Part shown: positions 15,636 through 61,979 of the stretch, in pieces
How positions within the stretch are numbered: the stretch's first letter is position 1
Layout of the letters: the number at the start of each line of letters is the position of its first letter
Assembly: GCA_964401675.1 (NCBI GenBank)
Contig: CAYNZD010000001.1
Location: 12,007 to 76,006 of the forward strand
DNA from: Candidatus Woesearchaeota archaeon
Lineage (GTDB): Archaea; Nanobdellota; Nanobdellia; Pacearchaeales; GW2011-AR1
DNA: 64,000 bases
Direction: 5' to 3'
Notes under the pieces: generated by a model
Database searches by the model: none
What the model saw: only the letters and a program-made list of their open reading frames with translations
What the model was told of the DNA's origin: nothing
Position numbers and translations under genes: made by a program

Positions 15636-15666
15636 ATCATATAAAAGAAAGCTTGGGTTTTAAATG

Positions 15667-16059
15667 TTACCAGCCCATCACTCCGACGGATGTATCTGAT
15701 GGCTGGCTAATGTCAAGTTTTTTTTCTAAAAGTTCAATTCTGTTCTCGAGCTTGTATATTTTATTATCAAGATTCGTTATTTTTGTATCAACTTCTCTTT
15801 TGTTGTAACCTTCGGGTTCTATTGAAAATTCTGTTGAAGCGGGAGTGGATGAAGCTGATTCTGCCGAAGAGTCCATAAACCCAAAAAATTCTGTGTTTGA
15901 TGAAGGCTGTGTTTTTTGTTTCGGTTTTCCATTGCTGCCTAATTCTACAAAGCCATCCTGATTTGTCGGAATTACAACATCATTTTTTGGAATTCTCACG
16001 ATTCCTCTTTTCTGAAGCTCCCTCACATCAATCATCCTTTTTTTCTTTTTGAAAAACAT
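15667..16059 (-). CDS. hypothetical protein with a C-terminal coiled coil
   Basis: 130-aa ORF. The likely start is an internal Met (MIDVRELQKRGIVRIPK). It has a Ser/Thr-rich linker and a coiled-coil tail. Confidence 0.35.
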   Translation of the reverse strand: MFFKKKKRMIDVRELQKRGIVRIPKNDVVIPTNQDGFVELGSNGKPKQKTQPSSNTEFFGFMDSSAESASSTPASTEFSIEPEGYNKREVDTKITNLDNKIYKLENRIELLEKKLDISQPSDTSVGVMGW

Positions 16060-16140
16060 ATATAGTTAGAGATATTTGACTATATAAAATTTTGGAAGCG
16101 AAATAGTGAGATTTATATATTCTTTATTCCATGTTAAAAT

Positions 16141-17754: not shown

Positions 17755-17787
17755 CAAGGTAAATAAAGTTTGTTTCTGTGAAATTAT

Positions 17788-18366
17788 ATGGCAAAAGATG
17801 AAGAAATAATTGAAGAACTTGATGAAAATAGCGATAGCGAAATAGGAGAGGAGAAAATAGAGGAGAGTGGAATTTTTGATGAGGATACTGATGAGTCTGA
17901 GCTGAATTTTGAAGAGGCTGATGAGAGTATTAGCGATTTTTCTATTGGAGATACAATTCTATCTTCAGCTTCGACGATGCAAATAAGACAATCACATAAT
18001 TTAGAAGATCTTGCCGGCAAAGATAAAACAGAGGGTTCTGGATGGGATAGTTCTGGTGAAGTTAATGAGGAAGAAAAAAATGAAAGAGATTTTTATAATA
18101 ATTCAAGTGGGAATCTTTATGAGGGGAGTCAAGGCGAAGGAAATTCATATCAAAATGGAAACGAAAATTTATATTCGGAGAAAAGCGATGGAAAGAATGC
18201 TTATGATTTTGAAAAAGTTAGTATTAAGAGTTATGACCAACTTAAAGATGAACGAAGGGGAAGTAAGTCTATGTTGGAAATTTCCGGATTTGAAGACAAT
18301 GAAAAACAGAAACATAAAGAATTTACTCGTGATTTTGTTGCTTATGATGCAGATAAGGCGGCGTAG
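17788..18366 (+). CDS. highly acidic, low-complexity (probably disordered) protein
   Basis: 192 aa rich in D, E, S, N and G (EELDENSDSEIGEEKIEES...). It sits 33 nt after the upstream gene and 38 nt before the next. Confidence 0.4.
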   Translation: MAKDEEIIEELDENSDSEIGEEKIEESGIFDEDTDESELNFEEADESISDFSIGDTILSSASTMQIRQSHNLEDLAGKDKTEGSGWDSSGEVNEEEKNERDFYNNSSGNLYEGSQGEGNSYQNGNENLYSEKSDGKNAYDFEKVSIKSYDQLKDERRGSKSMLEISGFEDNEKQKHKEFTRDFVAYDADKAA

Positions 18367-18404
18367 TTAATTTTAAATAATAAGATAAGTTTAGTTTCTT
18401 GGTG

Positions 18405-20375: not shown

Positions 20376-20454
20376 GAAATTTTTTATTTTCAATTAACTT
20401 TAAAAGTTATTAATTTTTTAGATGATAAGGTGACAATTTTTATTGTTGAATATT

Positions 20455-22236
20455 AAAATGGAAAATAAAAAAATAGGAAATCCAATATGGAATGTTATTA
20501 AAACAGAATGGAAATACTTGGGAGATCGGAAAAAGATTTTTGTTTTGTATATGTCTCTATTTGTTATAGCAGGAATAATAAATTTACTTAATCCGTTGGT
20601 AATTGGACTTATTTTTAATTCAATTCAGCAAACTATTGGTTCTGACGCAGAATTGAAAAAATTGATTTCTATGATTTTTTTACTTTTAGCACTTACAATT
20701 GGATTTTGGATTTTTCATGGAGCAGGAAGGATTCTCGAGGAGTTGACAGGTTTTCAGGTTCAAAGAAATTATACTAATTCGAAAATTAAAAGGATTTTAG
20801 AATTGCCGGTGAGATGGCATAAAGACCATCATTCAGGAGACACAATCGACAAAGTTAATAGAGGGAGAAATGCTATTGGTTCTTTTTCAGAGTCTGCTAC
20901 TTTCTCAATAGTTTATGCAATTCTGAATATTTTTGGAGCTTTAATAATTTTGTTTTTTATAGATAAAAAAATAGCTATTTTTGCCATGGTATTTTCTTTT
21001 TCAGTTTTGTTTGCAATAATGAAAATTGATAAAAGATTATCTAGATATTATCAAAAATTGAATAAATACAGCAATAAGCTTTCTTCTGCAATTTTTGATT
21101 ATTTAAGCAATATTATGACGGTTATTACTTTACGTTTGAAAAAAACGGTATCGCAAGAAATCGATGATAAATTTATGGCAGCATATAAAATTAATAAAAA
21201 GAGTTTATTTTTGAATGAATTTAAATGGGGGTTCGCAAGTATCTCTATCTCTCTCATGACCGTGTTGGCTTTAAGCTATAGGGCATATTCTGATTATTAT
21301 AGTGGTGGAATAATTTTAATTGGAACTCTTTATATGTTATATGGCTATCTGAAAACAGTCGGAAATACTTTTTATGAATTTGCTCATTTGTATGGAACTA
21401 TTATAAAATATGATGCAAGAATTCGGGGCGCATATCCAATTGACGAGGCGTTTGAAAAAATTGGAGAGGAATCCAATGGAAGATTGCCTTATGGGTGGAA
21501 AGAAATTGAATTGAAAAATTTAAATTTCAAATACGATCATTCTATTGAAAAGAGCAACCTTAAGGATGTTAACGTTAAATTTAAAAATGGGCAAAAGATT
21601 GCTTTAGTCGGCGAAAGTGGTTCGGGTAAAAGTACAATTTTGTCTATTATTAGGGGACTTTATCCCACTGACAAGGGAAGTGTTTATTTTGATGGCATGA
21701 AATTGAAGAAAGGTATCAATGAGCTTAAGCAAAGCGTTAGCTTGATTCCACAGGACCCTGAAATTTTTAATAATACAATTAAATATAATATGACAATGGA
21801 TTTGAAAACCAGCAAGGAAGATTTGATGAAAGCTGTTAAAATGGCGAGATTTGGCGACGTGGTTAAGAGATTGGAAAATGGATTAGATACTAACGTTTTA
21901 GAAAAAGGAGTTTCGTTGAGTGGCGGAGAAAAGCAAAGACTTGCATTAGTTCGAGGATTACTTGCTGCAAGAAAAAGTGATATTGTTTTATTGGACGAGC
22001 CAACGAGCAGTGTAGATAGCTTGAATGAGATGAAAATTCATGATAACATATTTAAGGAATTTGAAGATAAAACAATTATATCCTCGATACATAGGCTTCA
22101 TCTTCTTGATAAGTTTGATTATATTTATATGTTTGAGCAAGGAAAAATAATAGCAGAAGGAAATTTGGAAGAGATTAAGAAAAATATAAAGTTCATGTAT
22201 ATATGGAGAAAATATGGGGCAGGAAGAAAAAAATAG
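20455..22236 (+). CDS. ABC transporter, fused permease and ATP-binding protein (MsbA-like exporter)
   Basis: N-terminal TM helices are followed by Walker A (GESGSGKST), the ABC signature (LSGGEKQRLALVRGL) and Walker B (IVLLDEPTSSVD). Confidence 0.8.
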   Translation, partial: KMENKKIGNPIWNVIKTEWKYLGDRKKIFVLYMSLFVIAGIINLLNPLVIGLIFNSIQQTIGSDAELKKLISMIFLLLALTIGFWIFHGAGRILEELTGFQVQRNYTNSKIKRILELPVRWHKDHHSGDTIDKVNRGRNAIGSFSESATFSIVYAILNIFGALIILFFIDKKIAIFAMVFSFSVLFAIMKIDKRLSRYYQKLNKYSNKLSSAIFDYLSNIMTVITLRLKKTVSQEIDDKFMAAYKINKKSLFLNEFKWGFASISISLMTVLALSYRAYSDYYSGGIILIGTLYMLYGYLKTVGNTFYEFAHLYGTIIKYDARIRGAYPIDEAFEKIGEESNGRLPYGWKEIELKNLNFKYDHSIEKSNLKDVNVKFKNGQKIALVGESGSGKSTILSIIRGLYPTDKGSVYFDGMKLKKGINELKQSVSLIPQDPEIFNNTIKYNMTMDLKTSKEDLMKAVKMARFGDVVKRLENGLDTNVLEKGVSLSGGEKQRLALVRGLLAARKSDIVLLDEPTSSVDSLNEMKIHDNIFKEFEDKTIISSIHRLHLLDKFDYIYMFEQGKIIAEGNLEEIKKNIKFMYIWRKYGAGRKK

Positions 22237-22256
22237 GGCAAAAATTTATAACAACC

Positions 22257-22265
22257 TTTATAAAA
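22257..22265 (+). promoter_or_regulatory. TATA box (tttataaaa) about 30 nt upstream of ATG 22294
   Basis: AT-rich TATA-like element at leaderless spacing. Confidence 0.3.
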
Positions 22266-22293
22266 TATAATTGCTACTAATTATTAGTAAAAG

Positions 22294-23220
22294 ATGGTGA
22301 AGAAAATAGCTAAGAAAGCAAATAAAAGCGTTGGAAATTTTGCGCATCCTAAATCGAAGAAGCCTAAAGTGAATTCTGGAAAAAAAGTGGAGTCAAAATA
22401 TATAACGAAAACTATGAAAAAAGAAGTGCCGACTTTGGCAATTGCGGGCGAGCGTGAAATTGCTTCGGATTTTGCAATAAAAGTTTATGATAAATTTGAT
22501 CAGATGATTAAATCAATTATTTTGTTTGGGTCTTCGGCAAAGAAAGTTGCGACTGCGGGTTCCGATATTGATATTATTATTATTATTGACGATGTTTCGG
22601 TGAGATGGGATCAAAGTTTAATTGCTTGGTATCGCGAAGAACTTGGGAAAATAGTTAAAGCAAATCCCTATGCTAAAACATTGCATATTAATACAGTTAA
22701 GTTGTCTACGTGGTGGGACGATATGATGAGGGGAGATCCGGTTGTAATTAATATTTTAAGATATGGAGATGCACTAGTTGACATTGGAGGATTTTTTAAT
22801 CCGTTGCGAATTTTATTAAAAGAAGGCAGAATTCGTTCTACCCCTGAATCAATTTATACATTGTTACAGAGAGCGCCAGGACATCTTACTAGAGCAAAGC
22901 AATCAATGCTTGCAGTTGTTGATGGGCTTTATTGGACGATGGTTGATTCGGCACATGCGGCTTTAATTGCTGCAGATGTTATGCCATCTTCTCCCGAGGC
23001 AATTCCAGAAGTTTTAACTGAAAAATTTGTTAAGGAGAAAAAGCTTGATAAGAAATATGTTGATTATTATTCTGAGATTCACATAGTTGCCAAAGAAATT
23101 ATTCACGGCAAAATGACCTCTGTTAAAGGTAGCGATTTAGATAATTGGTTTGAGAAAACGGATGATTTCTTGGGAGAAATGGCAAAATTAGTTGATTCTT
23201 TAATTGATAGCAAGGAATAG
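22294..23220 (+). CDS. Pol-beta-superfamily nucleotidyltransferase with a C-terminal helical domain (KNTase-like architecture)
   Basis: Basic N-terminal tail, followed by the NTase motif ILFGSSAKKVATAGSDIDIIIIID (GS ... DxD). It is a paralog of the 23661 gene across the C-terminal region (SPEAIPEVL is similar to SPEAIDMFM). Confidence 0.65.
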   Translation: MVKKIAKKANKSVGNFAHPKSKKPKVNSGKKVESKYITKTMKKEVPTLAIAGEREIASDFAIKVYDKFDQMIKSIILFGSSAKKVATAGSDIDIIIIIDDVSVRWDQSLIAWYREELGKIVKANPYAKTLHINTVKLSTWWDDMMRGDPVVINILRYGDALVDIGGFFNPLRILLKEGRIRSTPESIYTLLQRAPGHLTRAKQSMLAVVDGLYWTMVDSAHAALIAADVMPSSPEAIPEVLTEKFVKEKKLDKKYVDYYSEIHIVAKEIIHGKMTSVKGSDLDNWFEKTDDFLGEMAKLVDSLIDSKE

Positions 23221-27927: not shown

Positions 27928-29823
27928 ATGAGACAACAAACATTAACCATAGAAGAAATTTGCAACAAGCTTAGACCTTTCTTTGAGAAAAAAATTGACG
28001 AGATGTATTTTCAGTATGCCATGGCAGATAGCCGAGAAGAAAAAGAAGAAATCGCGCATATTTTGAATATGCTTTATCAAAAATACTTAAATCAACTATT
28101 GGATAAAAGTGTCTTACTAGAACCCCCGAGGAAAGAATTGATTGATGGAACATATAACCTTGCAACAATTAGTTATGCGGGAAGAAAGCTTTTTGATTTT
28201 TCATTAAGAGAGCAGGATTGGCCGCGACACATTTGCGTTACAGGCATGTCTGGTTCCGGAAAAACAACTTTCGCATTCAAAATAATTGAAGCTCTGAATA
28301 AGCACAATAAACCCTATTTAGTTTTTGATTGGAAAAAATCCTTTCGGCCACTTTCGGCAGAGAATAATTCAATTATGACTTTTACCGTCGGCAATGAAAA
28401 AGTAACCAACCTATTCAAGACAAATATAAATCAGCCACCTAAAGGGGTAACTCCAAAAGAATGGATTAATGTTTTATCCGGCCTTTTAACTGAAAGTTTC
28501 TCCGCATCGTTTGGCGTCCATAAAATAATTTTAGAAACGTTAGATCAAGCATTCAAAGAATGGGGAATTTATAGTGGATCAGAAAATTATCCAACATGGA
28601 ATCACATTAAATGGAAAATGGAAGAAAAATTAGATAAAGCTAAAGGCAGAGAGGCAGGATGGATGGAATCCGCATTAAGAATTGCGACCGTAATGACTTT
28701 CGGAGAATTCGGAAAAACAATGAACTATAAAGGAAACAATAGTTTCACAGTTGAAGAACTACTAGACAAAAAAGTAATTATGGAATTAAATTCTCTGGGT
28801 GGTGTAGAAAAAACTTTTTTTTGTGAATTTATCTTAACTTACATCTACAAATTAAAAAAAGCAATGCCCAATGAAATGAATCATGGATTCGACCACGCGA
28901 TTATCGTCGACGAAGCACATAATATTTTCTTAAAAAAACCAACGAGTTTTTCCAACGAATCTACAACTGATATGATATATCGAGAAATGAGAGAATATGG
29001 AACAAGTCTTATTTGTCTCGACCAACATATTTCAAAAATCTCTGATACAGTCAAAGGCAATAGTGCATGCCATATTGCATTTCAGCAACAGCTGCCTCAA
29101 GATATTCGAGATATAAGCGACATTATGAATCTTGGAGAAAACCGGCAATATTTTTCTCAACTTCCCGTAGGAAATGCAATTGTGAAACTCGCAGAAAGAC
29201 ACACCTCGCCTTTCTTAATAGAAGTTCCATATGTCGAAATGCGAAACAAAAATATAACGGATGAATATATCAAATCCAAAATGCAAATGACGACACTTGG
29301 TAACGATTATAAAAAAAAAGTAGACCCGAAATTCAACAAAGCGATAGAAGAACCCATATTAATTGAGCCAGTATCAACCGATGCTGGACCAATCGGCACT
29401 TCGAATAATCTAACAGAAATACAGCAAATATTATATGATTTTATTACAGCCCATTTAGAAGCTGGTATGGAATTAGAAGAAATTGAAAAAACTTTAGAAA
29501 AAAGTAAAGAACAAGGAAACTACACAACTTCGGACATAATATACACTATTAACTTGATTTTTGAAAATCAATTAACTCTATCGCCTCAAAATTTAAAAAT
29601 AAATGAAAATAGTAATTTAAGTTTAGATGAAAAAAATTTTACGGAATTTCTTCAGAAAAATCCAAAACATATTCTAAGCACAACTGAGCTATATTTACAA
29701 TTGGGACTTTCAGCAAGGAAGGGAACAATGGTAAAAAAAGGATTAGAAGAAAAGGAATTGATTAAAATCGAAGAAATAAAATATAACAAAGGTTGGAAAA
29801 AAATAATTAGACCATCCAATTAA
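27928..29823 (+). CDS. FtsK/HerA-superfamily ATPase (DUF87/HerA-like) with a C-terminal winged-helix-like domain
   Basis: Walker A HICVTGMSGSGKTT and Walker B AIIVDEAHNIF. The size and motif spacing are typical of HerA/VirB4-like DNA-translocating ATPases. The C-terminus LSTTELYLQLGLSARKGTMVKKGLEEKELIKIEEI is HTH-like. Confidence 0.65.
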   Translation: MRQQTLTIEEICNKLRPFFEKKIDEMYFQYAMADSREEKEEIAHILNMLYQKYLNQLLDKSVLLEPPRKELIDGTYNLATISYAGRKLFDFSLREQDWPRHICVTGMSGSGKTTFAFKIIEALNKHNKPYLVFDWKKSFRPLSAENNSIMTFTVGNEKVTNLFKTNINQPPKGVTPKEWINVLSGLLTESFSASFGVHKIILETLDQAFKEWGIYSGSENYPTWNHIKWKMEEKLDKAKGREAGWMESALRIATVMTFGEFGKTMNYKGNNSFTVEELLDKKVIMELNSLGGVEKTFFCEFILTYIYKLKKAMPNEMNHGFDHAIIVDEAHNIFLKKPTSFSNESTTDMIYREMREYGTSLICLDQHISKISDTVKGNSACHIAFQQQLPQDIRDISDIMNLGENRQYFSQLPVGNAIVKLAERHTSPFLIEVPYVEMRNKNITDEYIKSKMQMTTLGNDYKKKVDPKFNKAIEEPILIEPVSTDAGPIGTSNNLTEIQQILYDFITAHLEAGMELEEIEKTLEKSKEQGNYTTSDIIYTINLIFENQLTLSPQNLKINENSNLSLDEKNFTEFLQKNPKHILSTTELYLQLGLSARKGTMVKKGLEEKELIKIEEIKYNKGWKKIIRPSN

Positions 29824-29890
29824 TTCACATTCACACAAACAAAACAAAAATCCACACAACAAATACAACAAACAACAAACAACAACAATT
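29824..29890. repeat. CA-rich low-complexity tract (ACAAA / CAACAA microsatellite-like)
   Basis: cacattcacacaaacaaaacaaaaatccacacaacaaatacaacaaacaacaaacaacaacaa. It lies immediately after the ATPase stop. Confidence 0.5.
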
Positions 29891-30119
29891 CAATACATAA
29901 ATATTGAATTCAGCAACTCGCCAAAAATAAGTGGATAAAAACAAAAGAACGAAATACCTTCGCAGAAAATCAAAAAATCTGTGGAATAAGTTAATTCGAA
30001 AGAAGGAAATATTAGACTTGTCTTTAAGAAAGTTTCAGATATATGGTGGAATATCTTGATTATGAGGTATTTCAAACTAATTATTAGAAATAATTAACTA
30101 ACAAAGGGGGAACTAAGAG

Positions 30120-30545
30120 ATGAAGAAAATATTTGTCATTACAATTATTATGTTAACTATAGCATTTTCTTTCAGCAACCCGGCATTGGCAGAAGATTTA
30201 AGCGGGTATATCGGAACTTCAATATTCCCGGTAAACGACGAACACGATACCAATGGGACGGTTGAAGGATACGCGGAATATGCGCGCAAAAACTTTTTTG
30301 TTTCCGCAGAAGGAGAATTTTGGATTACAAACAACGTGCCAGAAAAGACAAGAACGGACAACTCCTACATTACAGGAACAAGTTTCGGCACATTCGGTTA
30401 TTTGTCCGATGTTCAACTTGGTATAGGATATAAACTGCCAAAAGGTTTTGATATAAGGTTAATTTATCGAAACCAGAGGTGGTATACCGGCTATGAAGGA
30501 GATTCGACGGGGATACAAGTCCGATGGAATTTTGGGAAAAATTAA
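30120..30545 (+). CDS. secreted beta-rich protein with a signal peptide
   Basis: Signal peptide MKKIFVITIIMLTIAFSFSNPALA. The mature part has alternating hydrophobic and polar stretches and ends RWNFGKN. A Shine-Dalgarno aagggggaac sits upstream. Confidence 0.45.
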   Translation: MKKIFVITIIMLTIAFSFSNPALAEDLSGYIGTSIFPVNDEHDTNGTVEGYAEYARKNFFVSAEGEFWITNNVPEKTRTDNSYITGTSFGTFGYLSDVQLGIGYKLPKGFDIRLIYRNQRWYTGYEGDSTGIQVRWNFGKN

Positions 30546-30669
30546 ACTTTAAAATAAGAGAGAGGAGGGCAAAAACACAACTCTATCAATTAGGGGAGGG
30601 AAAGAAATCTTTACATTAATTCTTTCCTTCCATGGACTTAACAATAAACTAACAGGAAGGAGTTTATTT

Positions 30670-30783
30670 ATGGCGAGAAAAAGGAAGCCGTCAGGAAAAG
30701 GAGGAAATAACATTTGTCCTAGATGTGGAAAATACAAAGCCTCTAGGCAAGACATATGTACGAAATGTCAACGAAATAAATAA
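30670..30783 (+). CDS. small basic zinc-ribbon protein (37 aa)
   Basis: MARKRKPSGKGGNNICPRCGKYKASRQDICTKCQRNK has CPRC...CTKC, a 4-Cys zinc ribbon. A GGAGG-like site (ggaaggag) sits 8 nt upstream. The gene is below the ORF-track size cutoff. It weakly resembles L37e-type ribosomal Zn ribbons, which is uncertain. Confidence 0.4.
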   Translation: MARKRKPSGKGGNNICPRCGKYKASRQDICTKCQRNK

Positions 30784-30799
30784 CAGAAAGGAAGAAATT

Positions 30800-30946
30800 A
30801 TGGCAAACGGGAAAGGAAGAACGTCCCCAAGAAACAACAAAAAGAATCGGCATTTCTGTGACTATTGTGGAAGGCCCAAATCTCCAGAAAATGAGATGTG
30901 TAAAAGATGTGTAAAAGAAAGAAAGAAAGAAATGGAAAATTATTAA
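30800..30946 (+). CDS. small basic zinc-ribbon protein (48 aa), tandem paralog of the previous gene
   Basis: MANGKGRTSPRNNKKNRHFCDYCGRPKSPENEMCKRCVKERKKEMENY has CDYC...CKRC. A Shine-Dalgarno aaaggaag sits upstream. It is in the same frame as track ORF 30725. Confidence 0.4.
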   Translation: MANGKGRTSPRNNKKNRHFCDYCGRPKSPENEMCKRCVKERKKEMENY

Positions 30947-30989
30947 GCTATCACCAATTTCACTTACTCAAAGAATAAGGAGCTTAGAA

Positions 30990-31154
30990 ATGCCTGTAGA
31001 TGCTAAAAATATTTCACTGGGAGTTAAAAAAATGGAAGATAGTCTTGTTGGAAAAATTGACGAGAATAGAAGAGGGGAGGGGAAGGAAGATAAAAAGGTG
31101 AAAAAAATAAAGAAAAGAAAAGAAGATGGAAAAACCAATCACAGAAGAACGTAA
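30990..31154 (+). CDS. possible small Lys-rich protein (54 aa)
   Basis: The ATG is preceded by aaggag. The protein is very basic and low-complexity, and could be a non-coding spacer. Confidence 0.25.
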   Translation: MPVDAKNISLGVKKMEDSLVGKIDENRRGEGKEDKKVKKIKKRKEDGKTNHRRT

Positions 31155-31266
31155 TAAAGTTTTAACGCAATAATGCAAAGAGACAGAAAGGTTCTGTTAT
31201 TTCACCTTTCTCTAAACAGAATCTTTCTGTCCCACCGAAAAGAAGAAGAATGAGAGGAGGAAATTT

Positions 31267-31422
31267 ATGTCGTCGAAAAAGAACAGAATAGTTATAATAA
31301 CAATAACAGCTATTGCGATTATACTTGCCTTCGCATTTACAATCATGTGCATTGGCATGATCCCAGAATTAAATTCACTTTTTGATTTAGAACAAATCGA
31401 AAAGAATCTAAAAACATTTTAG
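31267..31422 (+). CDS. small single-pass membrane protein (51 aa)
   Basis: A strong Shine-Dalgarno gaggagg sits 7 nt upstream. The central TM helix is IVIITITAIAIILAFAFTIMCIGMI. Confidence 0.4.
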   Translation: MSSKKNRIVIITITAIAIILAFAFTIMCIGMIPELNSLFDLEQIEKNLKTF

Positions 31423-31434
31423 GAGGATAAACTC

Positions 31435-31686
31435 ATGACGAGAAATAAAGCACTGCTTGGCTGGATCGCTTTTGTAGTCCCAACAACAATAGGGTGGCTA
31501 GTTCTTGAAACTGATTCAATACTGTATTTTCATTTTAACCACATATGGGAGATGATTGAAAGATACAGAACACCAGGACCATACCAATGCATTTTCGATC
31601 AAGAATTGATAATATCAACAGGAATCTTTCTGATGATATTATTTTCCGTAGTTACCTCCATGATAATGTGTATTAGGAAAGAATAA
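31435..31686 (+). CDS. small membrane protein (83 aa)
   Basis: A Shine-Dalgarno aggagg sits 8 nt upstream. It has two hydrophobic helices. Confidence 0.45.
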   Translation: MTRNKALLGWIAFVVPTTIGWLVLETDSILYFHFNHIWEMIERYRTPGPYQCIFDQELIISTGIFLMILFSVVTSMIMCIRKE

Positions 31687-31714
31687 AAGCCAGGAGGGGA
31701 TTAGTCATCAATTC

Positions 31715-31760
31715 AAAAAAGAGTTCGCTTTAGACAGGAGCTCTTTCAATTCTAAACCAA
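31715..31760 (+). repeat. hairpin repeat, copy A (terminator-like, AAAGAGTTC...GAGCTCTTT stem, then caattctaaac)
   Basis: aaaaaagagttcgctttagacaggagctctttcaattctaaacc. The stem is 9 bp with one G-U pair and is followed by TTT. It shares the 3-prime ggagctctttcaattctaaac with copy B. Confidence 0.6.
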
Positions 31761-31783
31761 TTTAATTTTAAGAGGAGGATATT

Positions 31784-32149
31784 ATGGAAAAAAAAGGGGT
31801 TCACATAGACATAGAGGAATACGAAGACAAAGAAAGACTATCGTTGACCTTAATGGCCATCGGAATGATTATGGGCGCAATGATAGTAATAATATCAGCA
31901 ATTCTGGCGTTTGGTGCATTTGTGGCGGAAGGAGATTATGGCTATGCAATAAAGTCTGTGAGTTTTCTCCCTATACCTATTTGTATTTTTTTAATCGGAT
32001 ATTTTCGAATAAAAAGAATGGGGAGGGAACTATCTGCGAGTGCTTTCGAAAAGAAAAATGAAAAAGAGTGGAAGGAATTTGAAAAGACTGTCTCCGAAGA
32101 TTGCAAAAAAGAAGGGAGTGAGCACGTCGGAGGTGGATGCAAATGCTAA
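31784..32149 (+). CDS. small membrane protein (121 aa)
   Basis: A Shine-Dalgarno agaggagg sits upstream. It has two TM helices and a Cys-containing C-terminal tail (GGGCKC). Confidence 0.45.
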   Translation: MEKKGVHIDIEEYEDKERLSLTLMAIGMIMGAMIVIISAILAFGAFVAEGDYGYAIKSVSFLPIPICIFLIGYFRIKRMGRELSASAFEKKNEKEWKEFEKTVSEDCKKEGSEHVGGGCKC

Positions 32150-32157
32150 CAAAACTA

Positions 32158-32210
32158 GCCTAACCCAAAAAAAGGGCTCGCTTCCGATTGGAGCTCTTTC
32201 AATTCTAAAC
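32158..32210 (+). repeat. hairpin repeat, copy B
   Basis: ctaacccaaaaaaagggctcgcttccgattggagctctttcaattctaaac. The stem is AAAGGGCTC / GAGCTCTTT. It starts 9 nt after the stop of the 31784 gene. Confidence 0.6.
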
Positions 32211-32237
32211 ATTTTTTTCTTCAAAGGAGAAAAAATA

Positions 32238-34061
32238 ATGAAAAAGTTATCTTTAGTTTTAAGTATAGTAATTGTTGCTGTTTTTGGATTGAATCAAGAA
32301 GCTTCTGCCAGAGAAGATCAAGAAGCATTTTGGATCTATTTTACACAAGATAAAAATATAAGTAATTTAAACACACAAACATCGGCACAAAAAGGATTAC
32401 TGGAAAAAGCAGAAAGGGGTATTAATTCCATTGGAAAACACCAAAAAATAGCTCACGCTCCCAATGCATATAAAAAAATTGGTATTGAAATGTATCAAAA
32501 ACATGACACCTTGTCTATAGACTATGTCATACTGCCTCCTCGAGAATTTAACAACAGAATCTCCATTCATGAACAGATATTTAGAGAGAGTATCGCAGAA
32601 ACACATGTGTACATTGTGCTTCCAAAATATATTTTTCCAATTCTCAGAAAACAACGAAGTATTATAACAAGCAACAACCGTCAAATTGAATTTTTAGATA
32701 TGGTATCTCCTGAAACAACCAACCTATCTAAAATATTAGAAAAATATAATTCAATAACAGGAAACACTCAGAAATCTCAAGAAAATTATTCTTCTAGTAT
32801 GGAAAGGGCATTTGATGGAACTCTTGATTTAATGGGAAAATCTGGAAAAATTGCAAAGTTTGTAAAAAAATTCATCAAATTGGGACTTGAAAAAGGGGAG
32901 AAAGAAAGAGTTCAATATCTTAGAGAAAAATATGGTTCTAATTACCAGGTCTATCGGATACCATTTCATGCATTCAAGAAAGTAAACCTCAAGCAGATTA
33001 ATATAGGAAGAGCCAATTCTATCTCCCTGTATTCTTCCAAGAAACCAGTGAAAGAAAAAATGTTTATAGAAATCCCTCGCATGACTTTTGAAATTGATGT
33101 TAAGGGTGCTGCAAGAAAAGCGAGTATCGAAGGATTAGCTTATGAAATGATGATTAAACCTGAATTTGTCAAAATAACCAATATTCCAACTGTAGTAACA
33201 AAAAAGAAATCTAAAAAATTCCTCCATCGAGATACACTTATGAATCGTAATAAATTTAATGAAGAAGTTAAAAAATATGTAGAATCAGGAGAATTATTCA
33301 AATCAGTATATAATAATGTTGGCAGGATTCTCTGGTTTGAAAAAATAAACGATGGCAAATTTCTTGTAGCTGTAGAATATAAAAGAGGTGGCGGAATACA
33401 ATATTGCGAAGTACGCTCATTTTATTTCCCTCTTCCTAATGATCTGGAATTTATTTCTGAACTCAAAAAAATACGTGGCATATCCTACTTGTCTCCAAAA
33501 GCAATCGAGGAGGAGCGACTCAAAGCTTTTGGGTGGATAGTTTTTGAACAGCTTCGAAAACATGGCAATAAGGGATATATATGGGGCAAAGGATGCGCCT
33601 TTAAAAAAAATTACAATACGGGCAAATATGAATGGAGTTTTCCACATAGTCCTAGGTCTTCTCTGAATGCCATAGCCAAAGAAGGAATAGAATCCTATAG
33701 GCGCATGTCTGATAAATATCGTAAAAGCCTCCTTGGAGAAGCAGAAAAAATTTGCTTAACAAGCCCGCTTAAAGAACTTTCACGAGACTATCGGATATCA
33801 ATGTATAAGCGCATTGATAATGCCATAGGAAATACTGTTGGTATTGTAGCAACATATATCCTAAAAGGTCGTAATGGCACACATATGGAATTGAGGGGAG
33901 ATGATACATTTTTAATAAAGAACAGAAAAACTATCAATGGAAAGTACAGAATAGAAGCAAGTGGTATTGTATTCATGGTAAACAATAGAACCATAAGAAG
34001 AAATTATGGCGTTGAATTTGTTATAGGTCCTGAGGACAACCGTTGGACAAGAACAGATTAA
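32238..34061 (+). CDS. secreted hypothetical protein (608 aa) with an N-terminal signal peptide
   Basis: The track ORF starts upstream at 32040. ATG 32238 is preceded by aaaggaga and gives MKKLSLVLSIVIVAVFGLNQEASA, a signal peptide. No known domain was recognised. The gene is flanked by hairpin repeat copies B and C. Confidence 0.5.
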   Translation: MKKLSLVLSIVIVAVFGLNQEASAREDQEAFWIYFTQDKNISNLNTQTSAQKGLLEKAERGINSIGKHQKIAHAPNAYKKIGIEMYQKHDTLSIDYVILPPREFNNRISIHEQIFRESIAETHVYIVLPKYIFPILRKQRSIITSNNRQIEFLDMVSPETTNLSKILEKYNSITGNTQKSQENYSSSMERAFDGTLDLMGKSGKIAKFVKKFIKLGLEKGEKERVQYLREKYGSNYQVYRIPFHAFKKVNLKQINIGRANSISLYSSKKPVKEKMFIEIPRMTFEIDVKGAARKASIEGLAYEMMIKPEFVKITNIPTVVTKKKSKKFLHRDTLMNRNKFNEEVKKYVESGELFKSVYNNVGRILWFEKINDGKFLVAVEYKRGGGIQYCEVRSFYFPLPNDLEFISELKKIRGISYLSPKAIEEERLKAFGWIVFEQLRKHGNKGYIWGKGCAFKKNYNTGKYEWSFPHSPRSSLNAIAKEGIESYRRMSDKYRKSLLGEAEKICLTSPLKELSRDYRISMYKRIDNAIGNTVGIVATYILKGRNGTHMELRGDDTFLIKNRKTINGKYRIEASGIVFMVNNRTIRRNYGVEFVIGPEDNRWTRTD

Positions 34062-34102
34062 CTAACCCAAAAAAGAGCTCGCTCCCACAGGAGCTCTTTT
34101 CC
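34062..34102 (+). repeat. hairpin repeat, copy C (perfect 10-bp stem AAAAGAGCTC / GAGCTCTTTT)
   Basis: ctaacccaaaaaagagctcgctcccacaggagctcttttcc. It begins at the stop codon of the 32238 gene and shares the 5-prime ctaacccaaaaaa with copy B. Confidence 0.6.
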
Positions 34103-34276
34103 AACCTTTTTTATTTGTCCCAACCTATATACTCTAACATACTATATTCAAACATATATATTAAACATCATACTAAATTCCTATACCAATTCAAAATACA
34201 ACAACAGCATGCCCAACCAATAATAGAAATAATCTGGGAGGGTTACATTTATATATTCTCTCCTCTAAAAAAATAT

Positions 34277-36811
34277 ATGGGTGATGAATATATTGCATGG
34301 CTTTCAAATATTTCTAAAAACGATTTAAATCTTATGGGAGGAAAGGGATCAAACCTAGGAGAAATGTTTAACGCAAAATTTCCAGTTCCCCAAGCATTCG
34401 TAATAACAACTAAGGCATTTTTTTATTTTCTTAAACAAGCAAAAATAGAAGACGAAATAAAATTAATCCTAAACAAAATAGATGTTGATAATACAAATGA
34501 TCTCGCCAAAAAAGCAGAAGAAGTTCGAAATATAATAATCAGCGCAGAAATACCAAAAGATTTAGAGGACGAAATTCTCGAAGCATACGACCATTTTAAT
34601 GTTGACCTTGCGGGGCTCGAAGGTTCGCCCGGAGCATTAGCAATTTTAAAATCTGCACGAGAACCTCTTTTCGTTTCGGTTCGTTCATCCGCGACAGCAG
34701 AAGATCAAGCCGATGCATCTTTCGCAGGACAACAAGATTCTTTTATTAATGTAAAAGGCAACACTGAATTAATCGAAAAAGTAAAACGATGTTTCGCCTC
34801 AATTTTCACTGCACGTTCAATTTTCTACCGAAAGAAAAAAGGATTTAACAAGCTAGTAGGTATTGCGGCAATCGTTCAAAAAATGGTAAATTCTGATAAA
34901 TCGGGGGTAATCTTTTCGCGGAATCCTGTCAAAAATAACGATGAAATTTTGATTGAAGCTGTTTTTGGACAAGGCGAAGGGATTGTATCCGGAAAAATAA
35001 AGCCAGACCAATATATTTTGACAAGGGAGCTAGAAATCACAGACAAAAAAATACCAAACAAAAAAATTGCAATCGTTAGAACCGCAGGAGGAGAAACGAA
35101 AACAATTCAATTGACACCTGAAAAATCAAATAGCCAAGTTTTGAAAACATACGAACAAAAACAATTAGCAGAATATGCAATCAAACTCGAAGAGCACTAC
35201 GATAAACCGCAAGACATAGAATTTTCAATTGAGAATGAAAATATTTACATCTTACAGACTCGACCGATTACAACTCTAAAGGAACCAACGGGTGAAGAAG
35301 AAGCGGACCTAGACGGACAAGTATTAACTGAGGGAATGGCAGCATCGCCTGGAATTGCATCAGGAATTGTAAAAATTATACATTCTATGGATGATTTAGG
35401 AAAAATAAAACAAGGAGATATTTTAGTTACGACGATGACAAACCCTGATATGGTTGTAACAATGCAAAAAGCGACGGCAATCGTGACATCAGAGGGAGGG
35501 GTAACGGCACACGCGGCAATTGTATCCAGAGAAATGGGAATACCTGCAATCGTCGGAGCACAAGATGCACTTGAGGTTTTAAAGGATGGCGATGAGGTTA
35601 CAGTCGACGGATTTCATGGAAAAGTATTTGCGGGGAAAGCCGAAAATAAATCAGTAGAAATATTACCGATTGTTGACACAAAGACAAAAATTAAAGTTAT
35701 GGTCGACCTTCCTCAATTTGCCGAGAGAGCCGCAAAAACACAAGCTGATGGGATAGGATTGATTAGATTAGAGGGATTGATCGCAACTGCAGGCAAGCAT
35801 CCAATCGCATATGAAAAAGAAAAAAAATTAGATGAATATCAAGCAATGCTAAAAGAAGGTTTGGGTAAAATAGCAGAGACTTTCATTGGCAAACCAATTT
35901 GGGTTAGAACTTCAGATATTCGAAGCGATGAATATGCAAATCTTAAAGGAGCACCAGAAGAAATCGAAAAAAATCCAATGCTTGGCGACCATGGAATCAG
36001 ATTCTCATTAAAACATCCAGACATCTTAAAAGCGGAATTATTAGCAATTAAAGAGCTTGCGGACAAAGGACATAAGTTTGGAGCAATGTTTCCACAAATT
36101 ATCTCGGTTGATGAAGTTAAACAGACAAAAAAAATCTTCAACGAATTGAAAATTGAAAACGTCCAATTCGGAGTTATGATAGAAACACCTGCCGCAACAA
36201 TTTTAATTAAAGATATCTGCGAAGAGGGAATTGATTTCATTTCTTTCGGAACAAATGATCTAACACAATATACACTGGCAATCGATAGAGGTAACGAAGA
36301 TGTTCAGAATATTTACGACGAAATGAATTGGGCGATTTTAAAACAAATCTCGCGAGTAATTAGGGAATGTAAAAAGCAAGGCGTGGAAACCTCAATCTGT
36401 GGGCAAGCGGGTTCCAAAAAAGAAATGGTGAAATTCCTAGTAAATTGTGGGATAGACTCGATATCTGTAAATGCCGACGCCGCAAAAGAAATTTCTGAAC
36501 TAGTACAACAATTAGAAAATCCAAATTCTCAACCTCCCGAAATAACAAAACCAGCCATTGAGCCACAAGTAGCAAAGTCAGTCCCAGAGACTCAAAATAA
36601 ACCTATCTCCGAAAATCCATCTCCGAAAATCCAAATTGAACCAATTGATAACAAAGAAGAAATTGAGAAAGAAATTGAAGAAAGAAAACAAGATGACAAT
36701 GAAGCCATGAAAGAATTAGAAAATCCAGAGCCAACCGAAGAAATTTTAACAGGACCAGAAGAAAAAACTGAAGCTACAGAAGAACCAAAAAAAGAAGATA
36801 TTTTTGATTAA
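34277..36811 (+). CDS. ppsA: phosphoenolpyruvate synthase (pyruvate, water dikinase) with a ~110-aa acidic/Pro-rich C-terminal tail
   Basis: MGDEYIAWLSNISKNDLNLMGGKGSNLGEMFNAKFPVPQAFVITTKAF is the PEP-utilising enzyme N-terminus. The mobile His domain reads TSEGGVTAHAAIVSREMGIPAIVG. The C-terminal TIM barrel reads GTNDLTQYTLAIDRGNEDV. The track start at 34043 is an upstream TTG. Confidence 0.9.
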   Translation: MGDEYIAWLSNISKNDLNLMGGKGSNLGEMFNAKFPVPQAFVITTKAFFYFLKQAKIEDEIKLILNKIDVDNTNDLAKKAEEVRNIIISAEIPKDLEDEILEAYDHFNVDLAGLEGSPGALAILKSAREPLFVSVRSSATAEDQADASFAGQQDSFINVKGNTELIEKVKRCFASIFTARSIFYRKKKGFNKLVGIAAIVQKMVNSDKSGVIFSRNPVKNNDEILIEAVFGQGEGIVSGKIKPDQYILTRELEITDKKIPNKKIAIVRTAGGETKTIQLTPEKSNSQVLKTYEQKQLAEYAIKLEEHYDKPQDIEFSIENENIYILQTRPITTLKEPTGEEEADLDGQVLTEGMAASPGIASGIVKIIHSMDDLGKIKQGDILVTTMTNPDMVVTMQKATAIVTSEGGVTAHAAIVSREMGIPAIVGAQDALEVLKDGDEVTVDGFHGKVFAGKAENKSVEILPIVDTKTKIKVMVDLPQFAERAAKTQADGIGLIRLEGLIATAGKHPIAYEKEKKLDEYQAMLKEGLGKIAETFIGKPIWVRTSDIRSDEYANLKGAPEEIEKNPMLGDHGIRFSLKHPDILKAELLAIKELADKGHKFGAMFPQIISVDEVKQTKKIFNELKIENVQFGVMIETPAATILIKDICEEGIDFISFGTNDLTQYTLAIDRGNEDVQNIYDEMNWAILKQISRVIRECKKQGVETSICGQAGSKKEMVKFLVNCGIDSISVNADAAKEISELVQQLENPNSQPPEITKPAIEPQVAKSVPETQNKPISENPSPKIQIEPIDNKEEIEKEIEERKQDDNEAMKELENPEPTEEILTGPEEKTEATEEPKKEDIFD

Positions 36812-61916: not shown

Positions 61917-61926
61917 ATACAGAATA

Positions 61927-61966
61927 TTTTTATTTTTATTTTTATTTTTTCTCACCTTCGGGTGAG
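61927..61966. terminator. hairpin (CTCACC-ttcg-GGTGAG) flanked by T-tracts between convergent ftsZ and nitroreductase genes
   Basis: tttttatttttattttttctcaccttcgggtgag lies immediately after the ftsZ stop. The oligo-T tracts fit archaeal termination. Confidence 0.5.
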
Positions 61967-61979
61967 AATTAAATTATTT

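What the first reader, a model, noticed from the sequence alone, without database searches (positions are those of the whole stretch)
31715..34102. Three copies of a conserved ~40-nt hairpin element placed just after stop codons
Copies at 31715-31760, 32158-32210 and 34062-34102 share a 9-10-bp stem (AAAGAGCTC / GAGCTCTTT) built on the GAGCTC palindrome, each with a 9-11-nt loop.
- Copies B and C share the 5-prime ctaacccaaaaaa.
- Copies A and B share the 3-prime ggagctctttcaattctaaac.
- Each begins within 0-10 nt after a stop codon.
- Copies B and C bracket the 608-aa secreted-protein gene as direct repeats.
- Sequence-conserved terminator hairpins are unusual where termination normally relies on oligo-T tracts alone.
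- They could be terminators, RNA processing or stability elements, a small repeat family like REP or MITE, or recombination sites that make the secreted-protein gene a cassette.
Basis: seen in the sequence. Interest (0 to 1): 0.55.

Follow-up and report, generated by a model that had tools for sequence, protein, structure and literature searches.

The report
Conserved 3'-end hairpins in archaeal cassettes
Three near-identical RNA hairpins follow three consecutive genes for small membrane or secreted proteins in a tiny symbiotic-type archaeon (Pacearchaeota); they look like terminator or mRNA-end modules shared by a fast-changing gene cluster, not a genome-wide repeat.

Summary
Three co-oriented copies of an A-run, 9-bp stem (AAAGAGCUC/GAGCUCUUU) and 10-11-nt apical part lie 10-31 nt after the stop codons of an 83-aa, a 121-aa and a 607-aa gene. 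Shuffles predict 0 copies, and no other copy occurs in the 64-kb window.

It is not a genome-wide repeat family. Pattern scans of genome, metagenome and viral collections, plus loci reached through protein homologs, gave 11 more copies. All lie in five related Pacearchaeota-type contigs, in the same kind of variable small-gene cluster, beside PEP synthase wherever enough flank is held. All are just after stop codons where the upstream ORF is visible.

All 10 non-Watson-Crick stem cells are G.U on the sense strand and would be A.C on the other strand. Four stem pairs show compensatory changes. The apical part (bulged G, C-G, U-A, YCCAY loop) is conserved.

Genes upstream of the hairpins are often non-homologous between relatives, so the region behaves like a cassette array. 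The attC boxes, an integrase and a RAYT gene are all absent.

Best reading: a sense-strand RNA 3'-end module. Copy C, followed by U4 and U6, would be a strong terminator. A and B would be leaky terminators or stabilisers. There are no transcript data. Moderately interesting.

The parts
31706..31758 (+). Hairpin copy A. A-run, stem 31718-31726/31738-31746 (one U.G pair), apical part GCUUUAGACAG, 3' flank CAATTCTAAAC. Follows the 83-aa gene. SD and ATG of the next gene lie 38 nt downstream. No U4+ tract abuts the stem.
32159..32211 (+). Hairpin copy B. 5' flank CTAACCC, A-run, stem 32171-32179/32191-32199 (one G.U pair), 3' flank CAATTCTAAAC. Follows the 121-aa gene. Orthologous copy in L018.
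32212..32218 (+). T7 tract 12 nt after hairpin B. The only U4+ tract between B and the 607-aa gene.
   Evidence: rule on U-tracts from PMC8716108
34060..34111 (+). Hairpin copy C. 5' flank CTAACCC, A-run, perfect stem 34072-34080/34091-34099, apical GCUCCCACAG. Starts right after the stop codon of the 607-aa gene. Closest to the terminal copies of L012, L022, L031 and L033.
34097..34116 (+). U-tracts after C: T4 (34097-34100), T6 (34107-34112), T3 (34114-34116). Two U4+ tracts form the archaeal strong-terminator signature.
   Evidence: PMC8716108
31435..31686 (+). 83-aa membrane-protein gene that precedes copy A. No Pfam family.
31784..32149 (+). 121-aa membrane-protein gene that precedes copy B. 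Weak sub-threshold PrgI hit. An A8 run sits just after the ATG.
32238..34061 (+). 607-aa secreted-protein gene bracketed by B and C. Homologs in L012 (630 aa) and L031 (614 aa) are also followed by a hairpin copy.
31182..31231 (+). Unrelated 15-bp intergenic hairpin X after the 54-aa ORF. Conserved in L018, with an A-U to G.U change in the stem.
30595..30631 (+). Unrelated 12-bp intergenic hairpin Y after the 141-aa gene. Conserved in L018.
29824..34116 (+). The variable cluster as a whole. About 300 nt of conserved leader, then eight co-oriented ORFs with Shine-Dalgarno sites (141, 37, 48, 54, 51, 83, 121 and 607 aa). It lies between a HerA/DUF87-type ATPase gene and PEP synthase.

Best explanation
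The three elements are copies of a lineage-specific, sense-strand RNA hairpin module. It marks the 3' ends of genes in a fast-evolving cluster of small secreted and membrane proteins next to PEP synthase in a Pacearchaeota lineage.

**Module anatomy**
- A C-rich or TAACC-type flank that often supplies stop codons in more than one frame.
- An A5-7 run.
- A 9-bp stem, a bulged G, then C-G and U-A pairs.
- A YCCAY-type loop in the terminal-type copies.
- The 3' arm, ending in U3-6.

**Inferred mechanism**
- The nascent mRNA folds the hairpin just behind the terminating ribosome.
- Where U4+ tracts follow (copy C, with U4 and U6, and most copies in relatives), hairpin and U-tracts together end transcription.
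- The hairpin then protects the 3' end from 3'-to-5' decay.
- Copies A and B have only U3 at the stem and one U4+ tract nearby. They would be leaky, so the 83-aa, 121-aa and 607-aa genes could still be co-transcribed.
- A and B would give partial termination, or a processing and stabilising barrier, that grades expression along the cluster.
- The A-run reads as a U5-7 tract on the opposite strand, so the module should also stop antisense transcription.

**Role in cassette turnover (inferred)**
- The 30-60-nt module is far better conserved than its surroundings.
- It probably also serves as a homology patch for gene replacement upstream of it.
- That would explain how it came to follow at least seven unrelated genes.

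**Shown:** the copies, their positions, sense-strand pairing constraint, covariation, loop conservation, restricted distribution and variable gene content.

**Inferred:** termination, stabilisation, and a role in recombination.
For: **Copies and distribution**
- Three exact pattern matches against 0 expected.
- No further copy in the window.
- 14 copies in six related populations:
  - window: A, B, C;
  - L018: 1 copy;
  - L022: 1 copy;
  - L012: 3 copies;
  - L031: 3 copies;
  - L033: 2 copies;
  - L039: 1 copy.
- All 14 are in the sense orientation.
- All 13 with a visible upstream ORF lie 4-38 nt after its stop codon.

**Structure under selection on the sense strand**
- In the 9-bp stem, 107 cells are Watson-Crick and 10 are G.U on the + strand.
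- The same 10 cells would be A.C mismatches on the - strand.
- These represent at least 7 independent changes, all in the same direction.
- 97.2% of cells are paired, and 4 pairs have changes on both sides. None of 500 shuffles reached these values or the covariation score.
- L012 copy 2 keeps a 10-bp stem with three compensated pairs.

**Conservation well above the surroundings**
- The C-type hairpin stem is identical between the window and L012, while the adjacent protein is 38% identical.
- The hairpin plus flank is 94% identical between L031 and L033, against 76% for the PEP synthase region.

**Terminator context**
- U-tracts follow 13 of the 14 copies within about 45 nt. A tract of U4 or more abuts the stem in 9 of them.
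- Two U4 tracts give the highest termination efficacy in archaea (PMC8716108).
- Cluster hairpins X, C, B and A are 4 of the 9 most stable 3'-flank hairpins among 59 genes.
- Terminator-like hairpins are not enriched in the surrounding 20 kb (22-42 kb): 8 found against 12.9 expected.
Against: - There are no transcript data, so no 3' end has been observed.
- Archaeal termination needs only U-tracts plus aCPSF1 (PMC8716108). Most other genes in this window do without hairpins.
- A and B lack an abutting U4+ tract.
- A plain terminator would not need conservation of the stem sequence and the apical loop across species. That conservation points to an additional, sequence-specific partner.
- The covariation rests on few sequences. 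L039_1 was first picked up by a model with this structure, and L012 copy 2 was aligned by hand.
- Only 64 kb of the host genome was searched. The collection scans used strict patterns that miss variants such as GGGGCTC.
Confidence: 0.55

Rival explanations
1. The hairpin is mainly a binding or cleavage site for a sequence-specific RNA-binding protein or ribonuclease that recognises the apical part (bulged G, two pairs, YCCAY loop). It would co-ordinate processing, stability or translation of the cluster's mRNAs. Termination would be secondary.
For: - The apical 16-mer CUCGCUYCCAYAGGAG is nearly invariant in the terminal-type copies.
- It is 15/16 identical in L039, although three outer stem pairs have covaried there.
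- The stem sequence, not just the pairing, is conserved between species whose neighbouring protein is 38% identical.
- Copies within one genome share derived changes: GGGGCUC occurs in 2 of 3 L031 copies and in both L033 copies. That fits co-evolution with a trans-acting factor, or gene conversion.
- A and B lack strong U-tracts.
Against: - No candidate partner is linked to the cluster. NYN and RRM proteins occur in the window, but 10-19 kb away and with no association.
- The loops of A, B and L018 (UUAGAC, UCCGAU, UCUGAU) and of L012 copy 2 depart from YCCAY.
- No Rfam family matches.
- This reading is compatible with the best explanation rather than exclusive of it.
Confidence: 0.2
2. The hairpins are recombination sites of a cassette system. 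They would fold in single-stranded DNA like integron attC sites, here as an integrase-less array (CALIN) or a new system. Each gene plus hairpin would be a mobile cassette.
For: - Co-oriented small ORFs are each followed by an imperfect palindrome.
- At least seven non-homologous genes precede the hairpin.
- Gene content differs between near relatives, with homology resuming 3-4 nt before the stem.
- Integrons and CALINs are reported in Nanoarchaeota (PMC9668308).
- G.T pairs and a bulged base are also tolerated in folded single-stranded DNA.
Against: - The core is 28-29 nt, well below attC length (my knowledge: about 55-140 nt).
- No GTTRRRY box occurs on the 3' side of any copy.
- An RYYYAAC-like 5' box occurs only in some copies and has no complementary partner.
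- The loop is conserved and the outer stem varies, the reverse of attC.
- No tyrosine recombinase or any other recombinase was found in the window or in the annotated flanks of relatives.
- Other genes of the cluster carry unrelated hairpins (X, Y) or none.
- Homology must start at the hairpin whenever the upstream gene differs, so the breakpoints are not independent evidence.
Confidence: 0.08
3. The copies are members of a dispersed, mobile small-repeat family (REP/BIME-like or MITE-like) that happens to have three insertions here.
For: - Size and shape resemble REP elements: an imperfect palindrome of about 30 nt in intergenic DNA at gene 3' ends.
- The mosaic of shared flanks suggests a portable unit of about 50 nt.
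Against: - No other copy exists in 64 kb.
- All copies in all genomes sit in one kind of locus and in one orientation.
- Scans of 596 Gb of genomes, of metagenomes and of viral contigs gave only three further true copies, each in a homologous locus.
- There are no terminal inverted repeats and no target-site duplications.
- No RAYT or transposase gene was found.
Confidence: 0.05
4. The inverted repeat AAAGAGCTC-N10/11-GAGCTCTTT is a double-stranded DNA operator for a dimeric transcription factor that controls the downstream genes.
For: - It is a palindrome with conserved half-sites.
- A and B lie at the same distance (38-39 nt) from the next ATG.
- The stem sequence is conserved across species.
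Against: - All 10 departures from Watson-Crick symmetry are G.U on the sense strand only. A DNA site has no reason for this.
- Compensatory changes keep pairing rather than half-site sequence.
- C-type copies have no gene at the corresponding distance. The next ATG is 178 nt away in the window, with its own proximal TATA box.
- The element tracks stop codons, not starts.
Confidence: 0.04

Closest known systems
Bacterial intrinsic (Rho-independent) terminators, including bidirectional ones with an A-tract
   Same: - An A-run, a G+C-containing stem-loop and a U-run just downstream of a stop codon.
- It acts as sense-strand RNA.
- The A-run mirrors the U-run, so the reverse strand also reads as hairpin plus U-tract.
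   Different: - The host is an archaeon, where U-tracts plus aCPSF1 are sufficient (PMC8716108).
- Stem sequence and apical loop are conserved between copies and species, whereas ordinary terminators are idiosyncratic.
- Copies A and B have only U3 at the stem.
Archaeal U-tract terminators (aCPSF1/FttA-assisted)
   Same: - Copy C is followed by U4 and U6.
- Terminal copies in relatives are followed by U4-U9 tracts. Two U4+ tracts is the signature of high termination efficacy.
   Different: - A conserved, structured hairpin precedes the U-tracts.
- Most other genes in this window do not have one.
REP/BIME elements of Gammaproteobacteria and other intercistronic stabiliser hairpins
   Same: - Sequence-conserved imperfect palindromes of about 30 nt between genes of one transcription unit.
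- They are known, from my own knowledge, to block 3'-to-5' decay and attenuate read-through. This is the inferred role of A and B.
   Different: - It is not dispersed: three copies in one 2.4-kb stretch and none elsewhere in 64 kb.
- All copies share one orientation, and no RAYT gene is present.
- The host is an archaeon.
Integron attC sites and CALIN arrays (reported in Archaea, PMC9668308)
   Same: - An array of co-oriented, poorly conserved small ORFs, each followed by an imperfect palindrome.
[quoted passage not shown]
- Gene content turns over between relatives.
   Different: - The core is only 28-29 nt.
- There are no R''/R' (RYYYAAC/GTTRRRY) boxes and no integrase.
- The loop is conserved rather than variable.
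- The evidence favours an RNA role.

Membership tests
Intrinsic-terminator-like 3' hairpin (hairpin plus U-tract) | Stable stem-loop on the sense strand, within a few tens of nt after a stop codon | tested here: met
   - Minimum-energy hairpins of -10.4 to -13.4 kcal/mol.
- Stems start 10-31 nt after the stops in the window, and 4-38 nt after in all 13 copies with a visible upstream ORF.
Intrinsic-terminator-like 3' hairpin (hairpin plus U-tract) | A U-tract of at least 4-5 nt directly after the stem | tested here: inconclusive
   - Met for C (U4, then U6) and for 9 of the 14 copies overall.
- Not met for A, B, L018, L012 copy 1 (U3 only) or L039.
Intrinsic-terminator-like 3' hairpin (hairpin plus U-tract) | Transcript 3' ends map at the U-tract | not testable with these tools
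   No RNA data are available.
Structured cis-acting RNA under selection | Pairing maintained through one-sided G.U changes and compensatory changes, specific to one strand | tested here: met
   - 117 of 117 stem cells pair on the + strand (10 of them G.U), against 10 mismatches on the - strand.
- 4 pairs show changes on both sides, and 0 of 500 shuffles reach the observed values.
- Caveat: few sequences, and one of them was found with a structure-aware model.
Any Rfam family | A match to a curated covariance model | tested here: not met
   - At gathering threshold, the only match in the window is a tRNA.
- At E-value up to 1, there is no match in 29800-34300.
REP/BIME or MITE-type dispersed repeat | Many copies dispersed over the genome, in both orientations | tested here: not met
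   - Three copies within 2.4 kb and none elsewhere in 64 kb with filters off.
- All copies are on the + strand.
- Collection scans found only homologous loci.
- Only 64 kb of this genome was available.
REP/BIME or MITE-type dispersed repeat | An associated RAYT or transposase, or terminal inverted repeats with target-site duplication | tested here: not met
   - No such Pfam domain occurs in the ORFs scanned with Pfam or annotated in the contig look-up (most ORFs of at least 110 aa plus the cluster's small ORFs).
- The flanks show no terminal inverted repeats or target-site duplication.
Integron attC / CALIN | R'' (RYYYAAC) and complementary R' (GTTRRRY) boxes that flank the L boxes | tested here: not met
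   - No GTT-containing R' box lies 3' of any of the 14 copies.
- GCCTAAC fits R'' only in copy B, and partly in a few other copies.
- No complementary partner is present.
Integron attC / CALIN | Length of about 55-140 nt with a variable terminal structure | tested here: not met
   - The core is 28-29 nt and the conserved module at most about 50 nt.
- The apical loop is the most conserved part.
Integron attC / CALIN | An IntI tyrosine recombinase nearby (not required for a CALIN) | tested here: not met
   No recombinase domain was found in the window or in the annotated flanks of L001, L031, L033, L035, L036 or L039.
Integron attC / CALIN | A score from the attC covariance model (IntegronFinder) | not testable with these tools
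Archaeal SECIS or readthrough element | A 3'-UTR hairpin with a GAA/A internal loop and in-frame UGA codons in the gene | tested here: not met
   - No GAA/A internal loop is present.
- No Rfam SECIS match was found.
- The ORFs as defined contain no in-frame UGA.

The most novel reading that the evidence does not exclude
The hairpin could be the signature of a previously undescribed cassette system in DPANN archaea.
- Unrelated small surface-protein genes would be swapped in and out next to PEP synthase, using a portable stop-codon, hairpin and U-tract module as the recombination handle.
- This could work as a single-stranded DNA hairpin, or through short-homology recombination.
- A loop-specific factor would read the same module in RNA, to co-regulate whichever cassettes are present.
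- That would be an integron-like diversification platform without attC boxes or IntI.
Probability: 0.08. Interest if true: 0.75.

Novelty: new variant of a known kind. Interest (0 to 1): 0.4.

Why it matters
- Archaeal transcription is thought to end at U-tracts, with hairpins largely dispensable. Almost nothing is known about gene-expression signals in DPANN archaea, which are uncultivated and known from metagenomes.
- Here a structured, sequence-conserved RNA hairpin is under clear sense-strand selection. It is confined to one hypervariable cluster of secreted and membrane proteins.
- These are the kind of genes expected to mediate contact with a host.
- If the hairpin does terminate or stabilise transcripts, it shows that some archaeal gene sets use bacterial-style 3' modules. 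It would also give a handle (covariance model R2) for finding such clusters in metagenomes.
- If the module also guides gene replacement, it bears on how tiny symbiont genomes diversify their surface repertoire.
- The practical value is modest until transcript ends are measured.

Tried and rejected
1. **Genome-wide repeat.**
   - Two covariance models, run with filters off, found nothing in the window beyond A, B and C.
   - The viral scan gave only chance hits in unrelated G+C contexts.
   - The genome and metagenome scans each gave mostly chance hits in bacteria.
2. **Known RNA family.** Rfam gave nothing at gathering threshold or at E-value up to 1.
3. **Viral origin of the 607-aa gene.** It has no relatives in IMG/VR.
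4. **Distant homologs of the 607-aa protein (P0002-P0004; loci L024, L028, L030).** They carry no hairpin copy. The hairpin therefore does not travel with that protein family outside the clade.
5. **Relatives with PEP synthase at 77-80% identity (L035, L036, L039).**
   - They have no close copy.
   - L039 has one diverged member, and other repeated post-stop hairpins of its own.
6. **attC boxes.** Inspected by eye in all copies and not found.
7. **N-terminal extension or frameshift fusion into PEP synthase.**
   - The PEP synthase frame is open for 81 codons upstream, through hairpin C.
   - It is open for only 18-32 codons in five relatives, so this is a compositional accident.
8. **Loop-motif scan of all loci for more diverged members.** Too noisy. 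It recovered only known copies, L039_1 and the two L039 D1 hairpins.
9. **Alignment of L012 copy 2.** MAFFT mis-registered its right arm by one column. I analysed it by hand and left it out of model R2.
10. **Look-up of P0013.** It returned no DNA.
Full report
**1. The observation**

Reading 31500-34400 shows the three elements as described.
- The pattern AAAGRGYTCGCT-N(6-14)-GGAGCTCTTT matches at 31718-31746 (A), 32171-32199 (B) and 34072-34099 (C), all on the + strand. It matches nowhere else in the window, and 100 shuffles gave 0 matches.
- Each folds as + strand RNA into a 9-10-bp stem, a bulged G, two further pairs and a 5-7-nt loop. Energies are -10.4, -11.7 and -13.4 kcal/mol, with z-scores of -2.5, -1.6 and -3.0.
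- B and C share the 5' flank CTAACCCAAAAAA. A and B share the 3' flank CAATTCTAAAC.
- One detail is wrong. A lies 28-31 nt after its stop codon (31684-31686), not 0-10 nt.
- The bracketed gene, 32238-34061, encodes 607 aa.

**2. Context**

The window is chromosomal DNA of a DPANN archaeon with 33% G+C.
- It carries archaeal ribosomal proteins L35Ae and L10e, aIF5B, GatD/E, FtsZ and several aminoacyl-tRNA synthetases.
- The best relatives are labelled Pacearchaeota, Nanoarchaeota or simply archaeon.
- Identical contigs come from ENA, JGI and SRA metagenome assemblies.

The hairpins sit in a 4.3-kb cluster, 29824-34116, between a HerA/DUF87-type ATPase gene and PEP synthase.
- The cluster opens with about 300 nt of noncoding leader.
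- Eight co-oriented ORFs follow, of 141, 37, 48, 54, 51, 83, 121 and 607 aa. All have GGAGG-type Shine-Dalgarno sites.
- Neighbouring housekeeping genes look leaderless, with a proximal TATA box.
- No integrase, transposase or RAYT domain is present in the ORFs scanned or annotated.

**3. Not a general feature of this genome, and not a dispersed repeat**

- A terminator-like scan of 22-42 kb found 8 sites against 12.9 +/- 3.5 expected. Three of the eight are the hairpins themselves.
- I ranked the most stable local hairpin in the 80 nt after each of 59 genes. The cluster's hairpins X, C, B and A took 4 of the top 9 places. Most other genes simply have T5+ runs.
- Model R1, built from six copies, scored A, B and C at 62-64 bits with filters off. 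Everything else in 64 kb scored 15 bits or less.
- Model R2, built from 13 copies, scored them at 44.5-55.8 bits, against 15.6 bits or less.
- A, B and C are training sequences of both models, so only the low background is informative.
- Rfam has no match.

**4. Distribution elsewhere**

Exact-pattern scans gave few true hits.
- Among 185,579 species-representative genomes, one true hit: L012, a Pacearchaeota MAG. The other five hits were chance hits in bacteria.
- In JGI metagenomes, two true hits: L018 and L022.
- In IMG/VR, none.

Loci reached through PEP synthase homologs added more.
- L031 (85% identity) has three copies. L033 (82%) has two.
- L035 and L036 (80%) have none.
- L039 (77%) has one diverged member.
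- L012 has two further diverged copies.

This gives 14 copies in six populations. All are in the sense orientation. All 13 with a visible upstream ORF lie 4-38 nt after a stop codon. All lie in the same kind of cluster, beside PEP synthase where the contig is long enough to show it. The cluster is upstream of PEP synthase in the window, L031, L033 and L039, and downstream of it in L012.

The scans used strict patterns, so variants such as GGGGCTC were only reachable through homologous loci.

**5. Evidence that the RNA structure is selected**

- In the 9-bp stem of 13 copies, 107 cells are Watson-Crick and 10 are G.U on the + strand.
- The same 10 cells are A.C mismatches on the - strand.
- They trace to at least seven separate changes, all in the sense-strand-compatible direction. 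By my arithmetic the chance of that is about 0.5^7, or 0.008.
- L012 copy 1 has C-G replaced by U-A.
- L012 copy 2 (AAAAGGAGUC/GGCUCCUUUU) and L039_1 (AACUCUC/GAGAGUU) each carry three compensated pairs.
- On alignment A6, 97.2% of cells pair and four pairs change on both sides. None of 500 shuffles reaches these values, and slid registers pair at only 31-73%.
- Caveats: few sequences, relatedness between them, and L039_1 was first noticed through a structure-aware model (14.6 bits).
- L039_1's apical 16-mer is 15/16 identical to that of L031 copy 1, and it lies 7 nt after a TAA.
- Hairpin X shows the same kind of A-U to G.U change between the window and L018.

**6. Conservation beyond what a terminator needs**

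- The C-type stem is identical in the window and L012, whose adjacent proteins share 38% identity.
- The 64-nt hairpin region of L031 and L033 is 94% identical, against 76% for the PEP synthase region.
- The apical part, G-CU-YCCAY-AG, is conserved in the terminal-type copies.
- Derived changes are shared among copies of one genome: GGGGCUC in L031 and L033. This suggests gene conversion or co-evolution with a factor.
- This keeps a loop-reading protein as a serious rival or addition to the best explanation.

**7. Terminator context**

- C is followed by U4, six bases, then U6 and U3.
- Terminal copies in L012, L022, L031 and L033 are followed by U4-U9 tracts.
- In Methanococcus, two U4 tracts give the highest termination efficacy together with aCPSF1, and hairpins are not strictly required (PMC8716108).
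- A and B have U3 at the stem. B has a T7 tract 12 nt further on, and A has only a T4 tract. Each is then followed by the Shine-Dalgarno site of the next gene.
- A and B should therefore be leaky, which is consistent with an operon graded by partial termination or 3'-end protection.
- The conserved A5-7 run gives a U5-7 tract on the antisense strand.

**8. Cassette-like turnover**

- At least seven non-homologous genes precede the hairpin:
  - the 83-aa, 121-aa and 607-aa families;
  - the L012_133 / L031_124 / L018_71 family;
  - L012_226;
  - L031_401;
  - the w141 / L033_144 family;
  - the L022 gene.
- L018 is about 94% identical to the window on both sides. It carries unrelated genes between window 31281 and 32166, and homology resumes at 32167, four bases before stem B.
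- L033 goes from the 141-aa homolog straight to the terminal hairpin. It lacks the window's 3.5 kb from 30546 to 34068, and homology resumes at 34069.
- L031 and L033 share hairpin 1 and the terminal hairpin but nothing between them.
- Homology must restart at the first conserved element, so these breakpoints do not prove recombination at the hairpin.
- The attC features fail (R''/R' boxes, length, variable loop, integrase). Integrons and CALINs are nevertheless known in Nanoarchaeota (PMC9668308).

**9. Verdict**

The finding is real. It is a lineage-restricted, sense-strand RNA hairpin module at gene 3' ends in a variable surface-protein cluster. It works most likely as a terminator/attenuator and 3' stabiliser. 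Its conservation makes it a likely anchor for gene replacement. It is not a REP- or MITE-like family and not an attC site.

It resembles bacterial intrinsic terminators and REP-type stabilisers. It differs from both in host, in distribution and in its conserved loop. Function remains inferred, because no transcript data could be examined.

Noticed in passing
window 31787-31794: An A8 run lies directly after the ATG of the 121-aa membrane-protein gene. Contigs L001-L003 of the same population have A7, which shifts the frame, and gene callers there start the ORF later. This is a candidate slipped-strand on/off switch, or an assembly error.
   Followed up: partly
window 34107-34175; also L012 3195-3250, 5244-5300 and 5310-5370; L022 262-324 and 1165-1191; L035 about 2020-2100; L037 1-60; L038 1-130; L039 9807-9914: A conserved noncoding block: a T-run plus (A)AACCTATATACTC..ATATAC.ATAT..ACATATATATTA. 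It occurs once in the window but recurs next to PEP synthase or after terminal hairpins in relatives. It is often tandemly duplicated, and it flanks the cassette on both sides in L022. PEP synthase has its own proximal TATA box (34246-34254), so the block's role is unknown. It could be an attachment site or a small-RNA promoter.
   Followed up: partly
window 29824-30119: A noncoding leader of about 300 nt lies upstream of the cluster. It is conserved with L012 1082-1440 and L022 330-630, with repeated TCCACA/TGTGGA motifs. It has no Rfam match.
   Followed up: partly
window 31182-31231 and 30595-30631: Two further stable intergenic hairpins, unrelated in sequence: X with 15 bp and Y with 12 bp. 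They follow the 54-aa and 141-aa ORFs and both are conserved in L018. X differs from its L018 copy by an A-U to G.U change.
   Followed up: partly
L039 1-10000 and L036 1-10000: In two relatives, the 10 kb upstream of PEP synthase is a G+C-rich island (0.50 against 0.40, and 0.56 against 0.45). It holds small ORFs with Shine-Dalgarno sites and its own repeated post-stop hairpins. L039 has a tRNA with anticodon UCA at 497-571, and L036 has an aberrant tRNA at 1492-1564. This looks like a mobile or viral insertion hotspot.
   Followed up: partly
window 61917-61979: Between the convergent FtsZ and nitroreductase genes lies a CUCACC-UUCG-GGUGAG hairpin flanked by long T and A runs. It is the only other clear terminator-like hairpin in the window.
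   Followed up: no
window 27928-29823 and 31784-32149: The 631-aa ATPase next to the cluster hits HerA/DUF87, with weak Zot and TrwB-type coupling-protein hits. The 121-aa membrane protein has a weak PrgI (VirB3-like) hit. This hints at a secretion- or transfer-related module, but no hit other than DUF87 reaches its Pfam threshold.
   Followed up: no
L024 2536-5120, compared with window 32238-34061: The N- and C-terminal halves of the 607-aa protein match two separate adjacent genes on an unrelated contig with 39% G+C. The N-terminal domain of L031's 614-aa homolog is 74% identical to one of them. This suggests recent domain exchange between organisms.
   Followed up: no
window 13947-23220 compared with L036 and L039 13-22 kb: The block from GluRS through the AP-endonuclease-like gene and ABC transporter to the nucleotidyltransferase lies upstream of PEP synthase in the window. 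It lies downstream, and inverted, in L036 and L039. Cumulative GC skew peaks at about 36-38 kb, where gene orientation switches.
   Followed up: no
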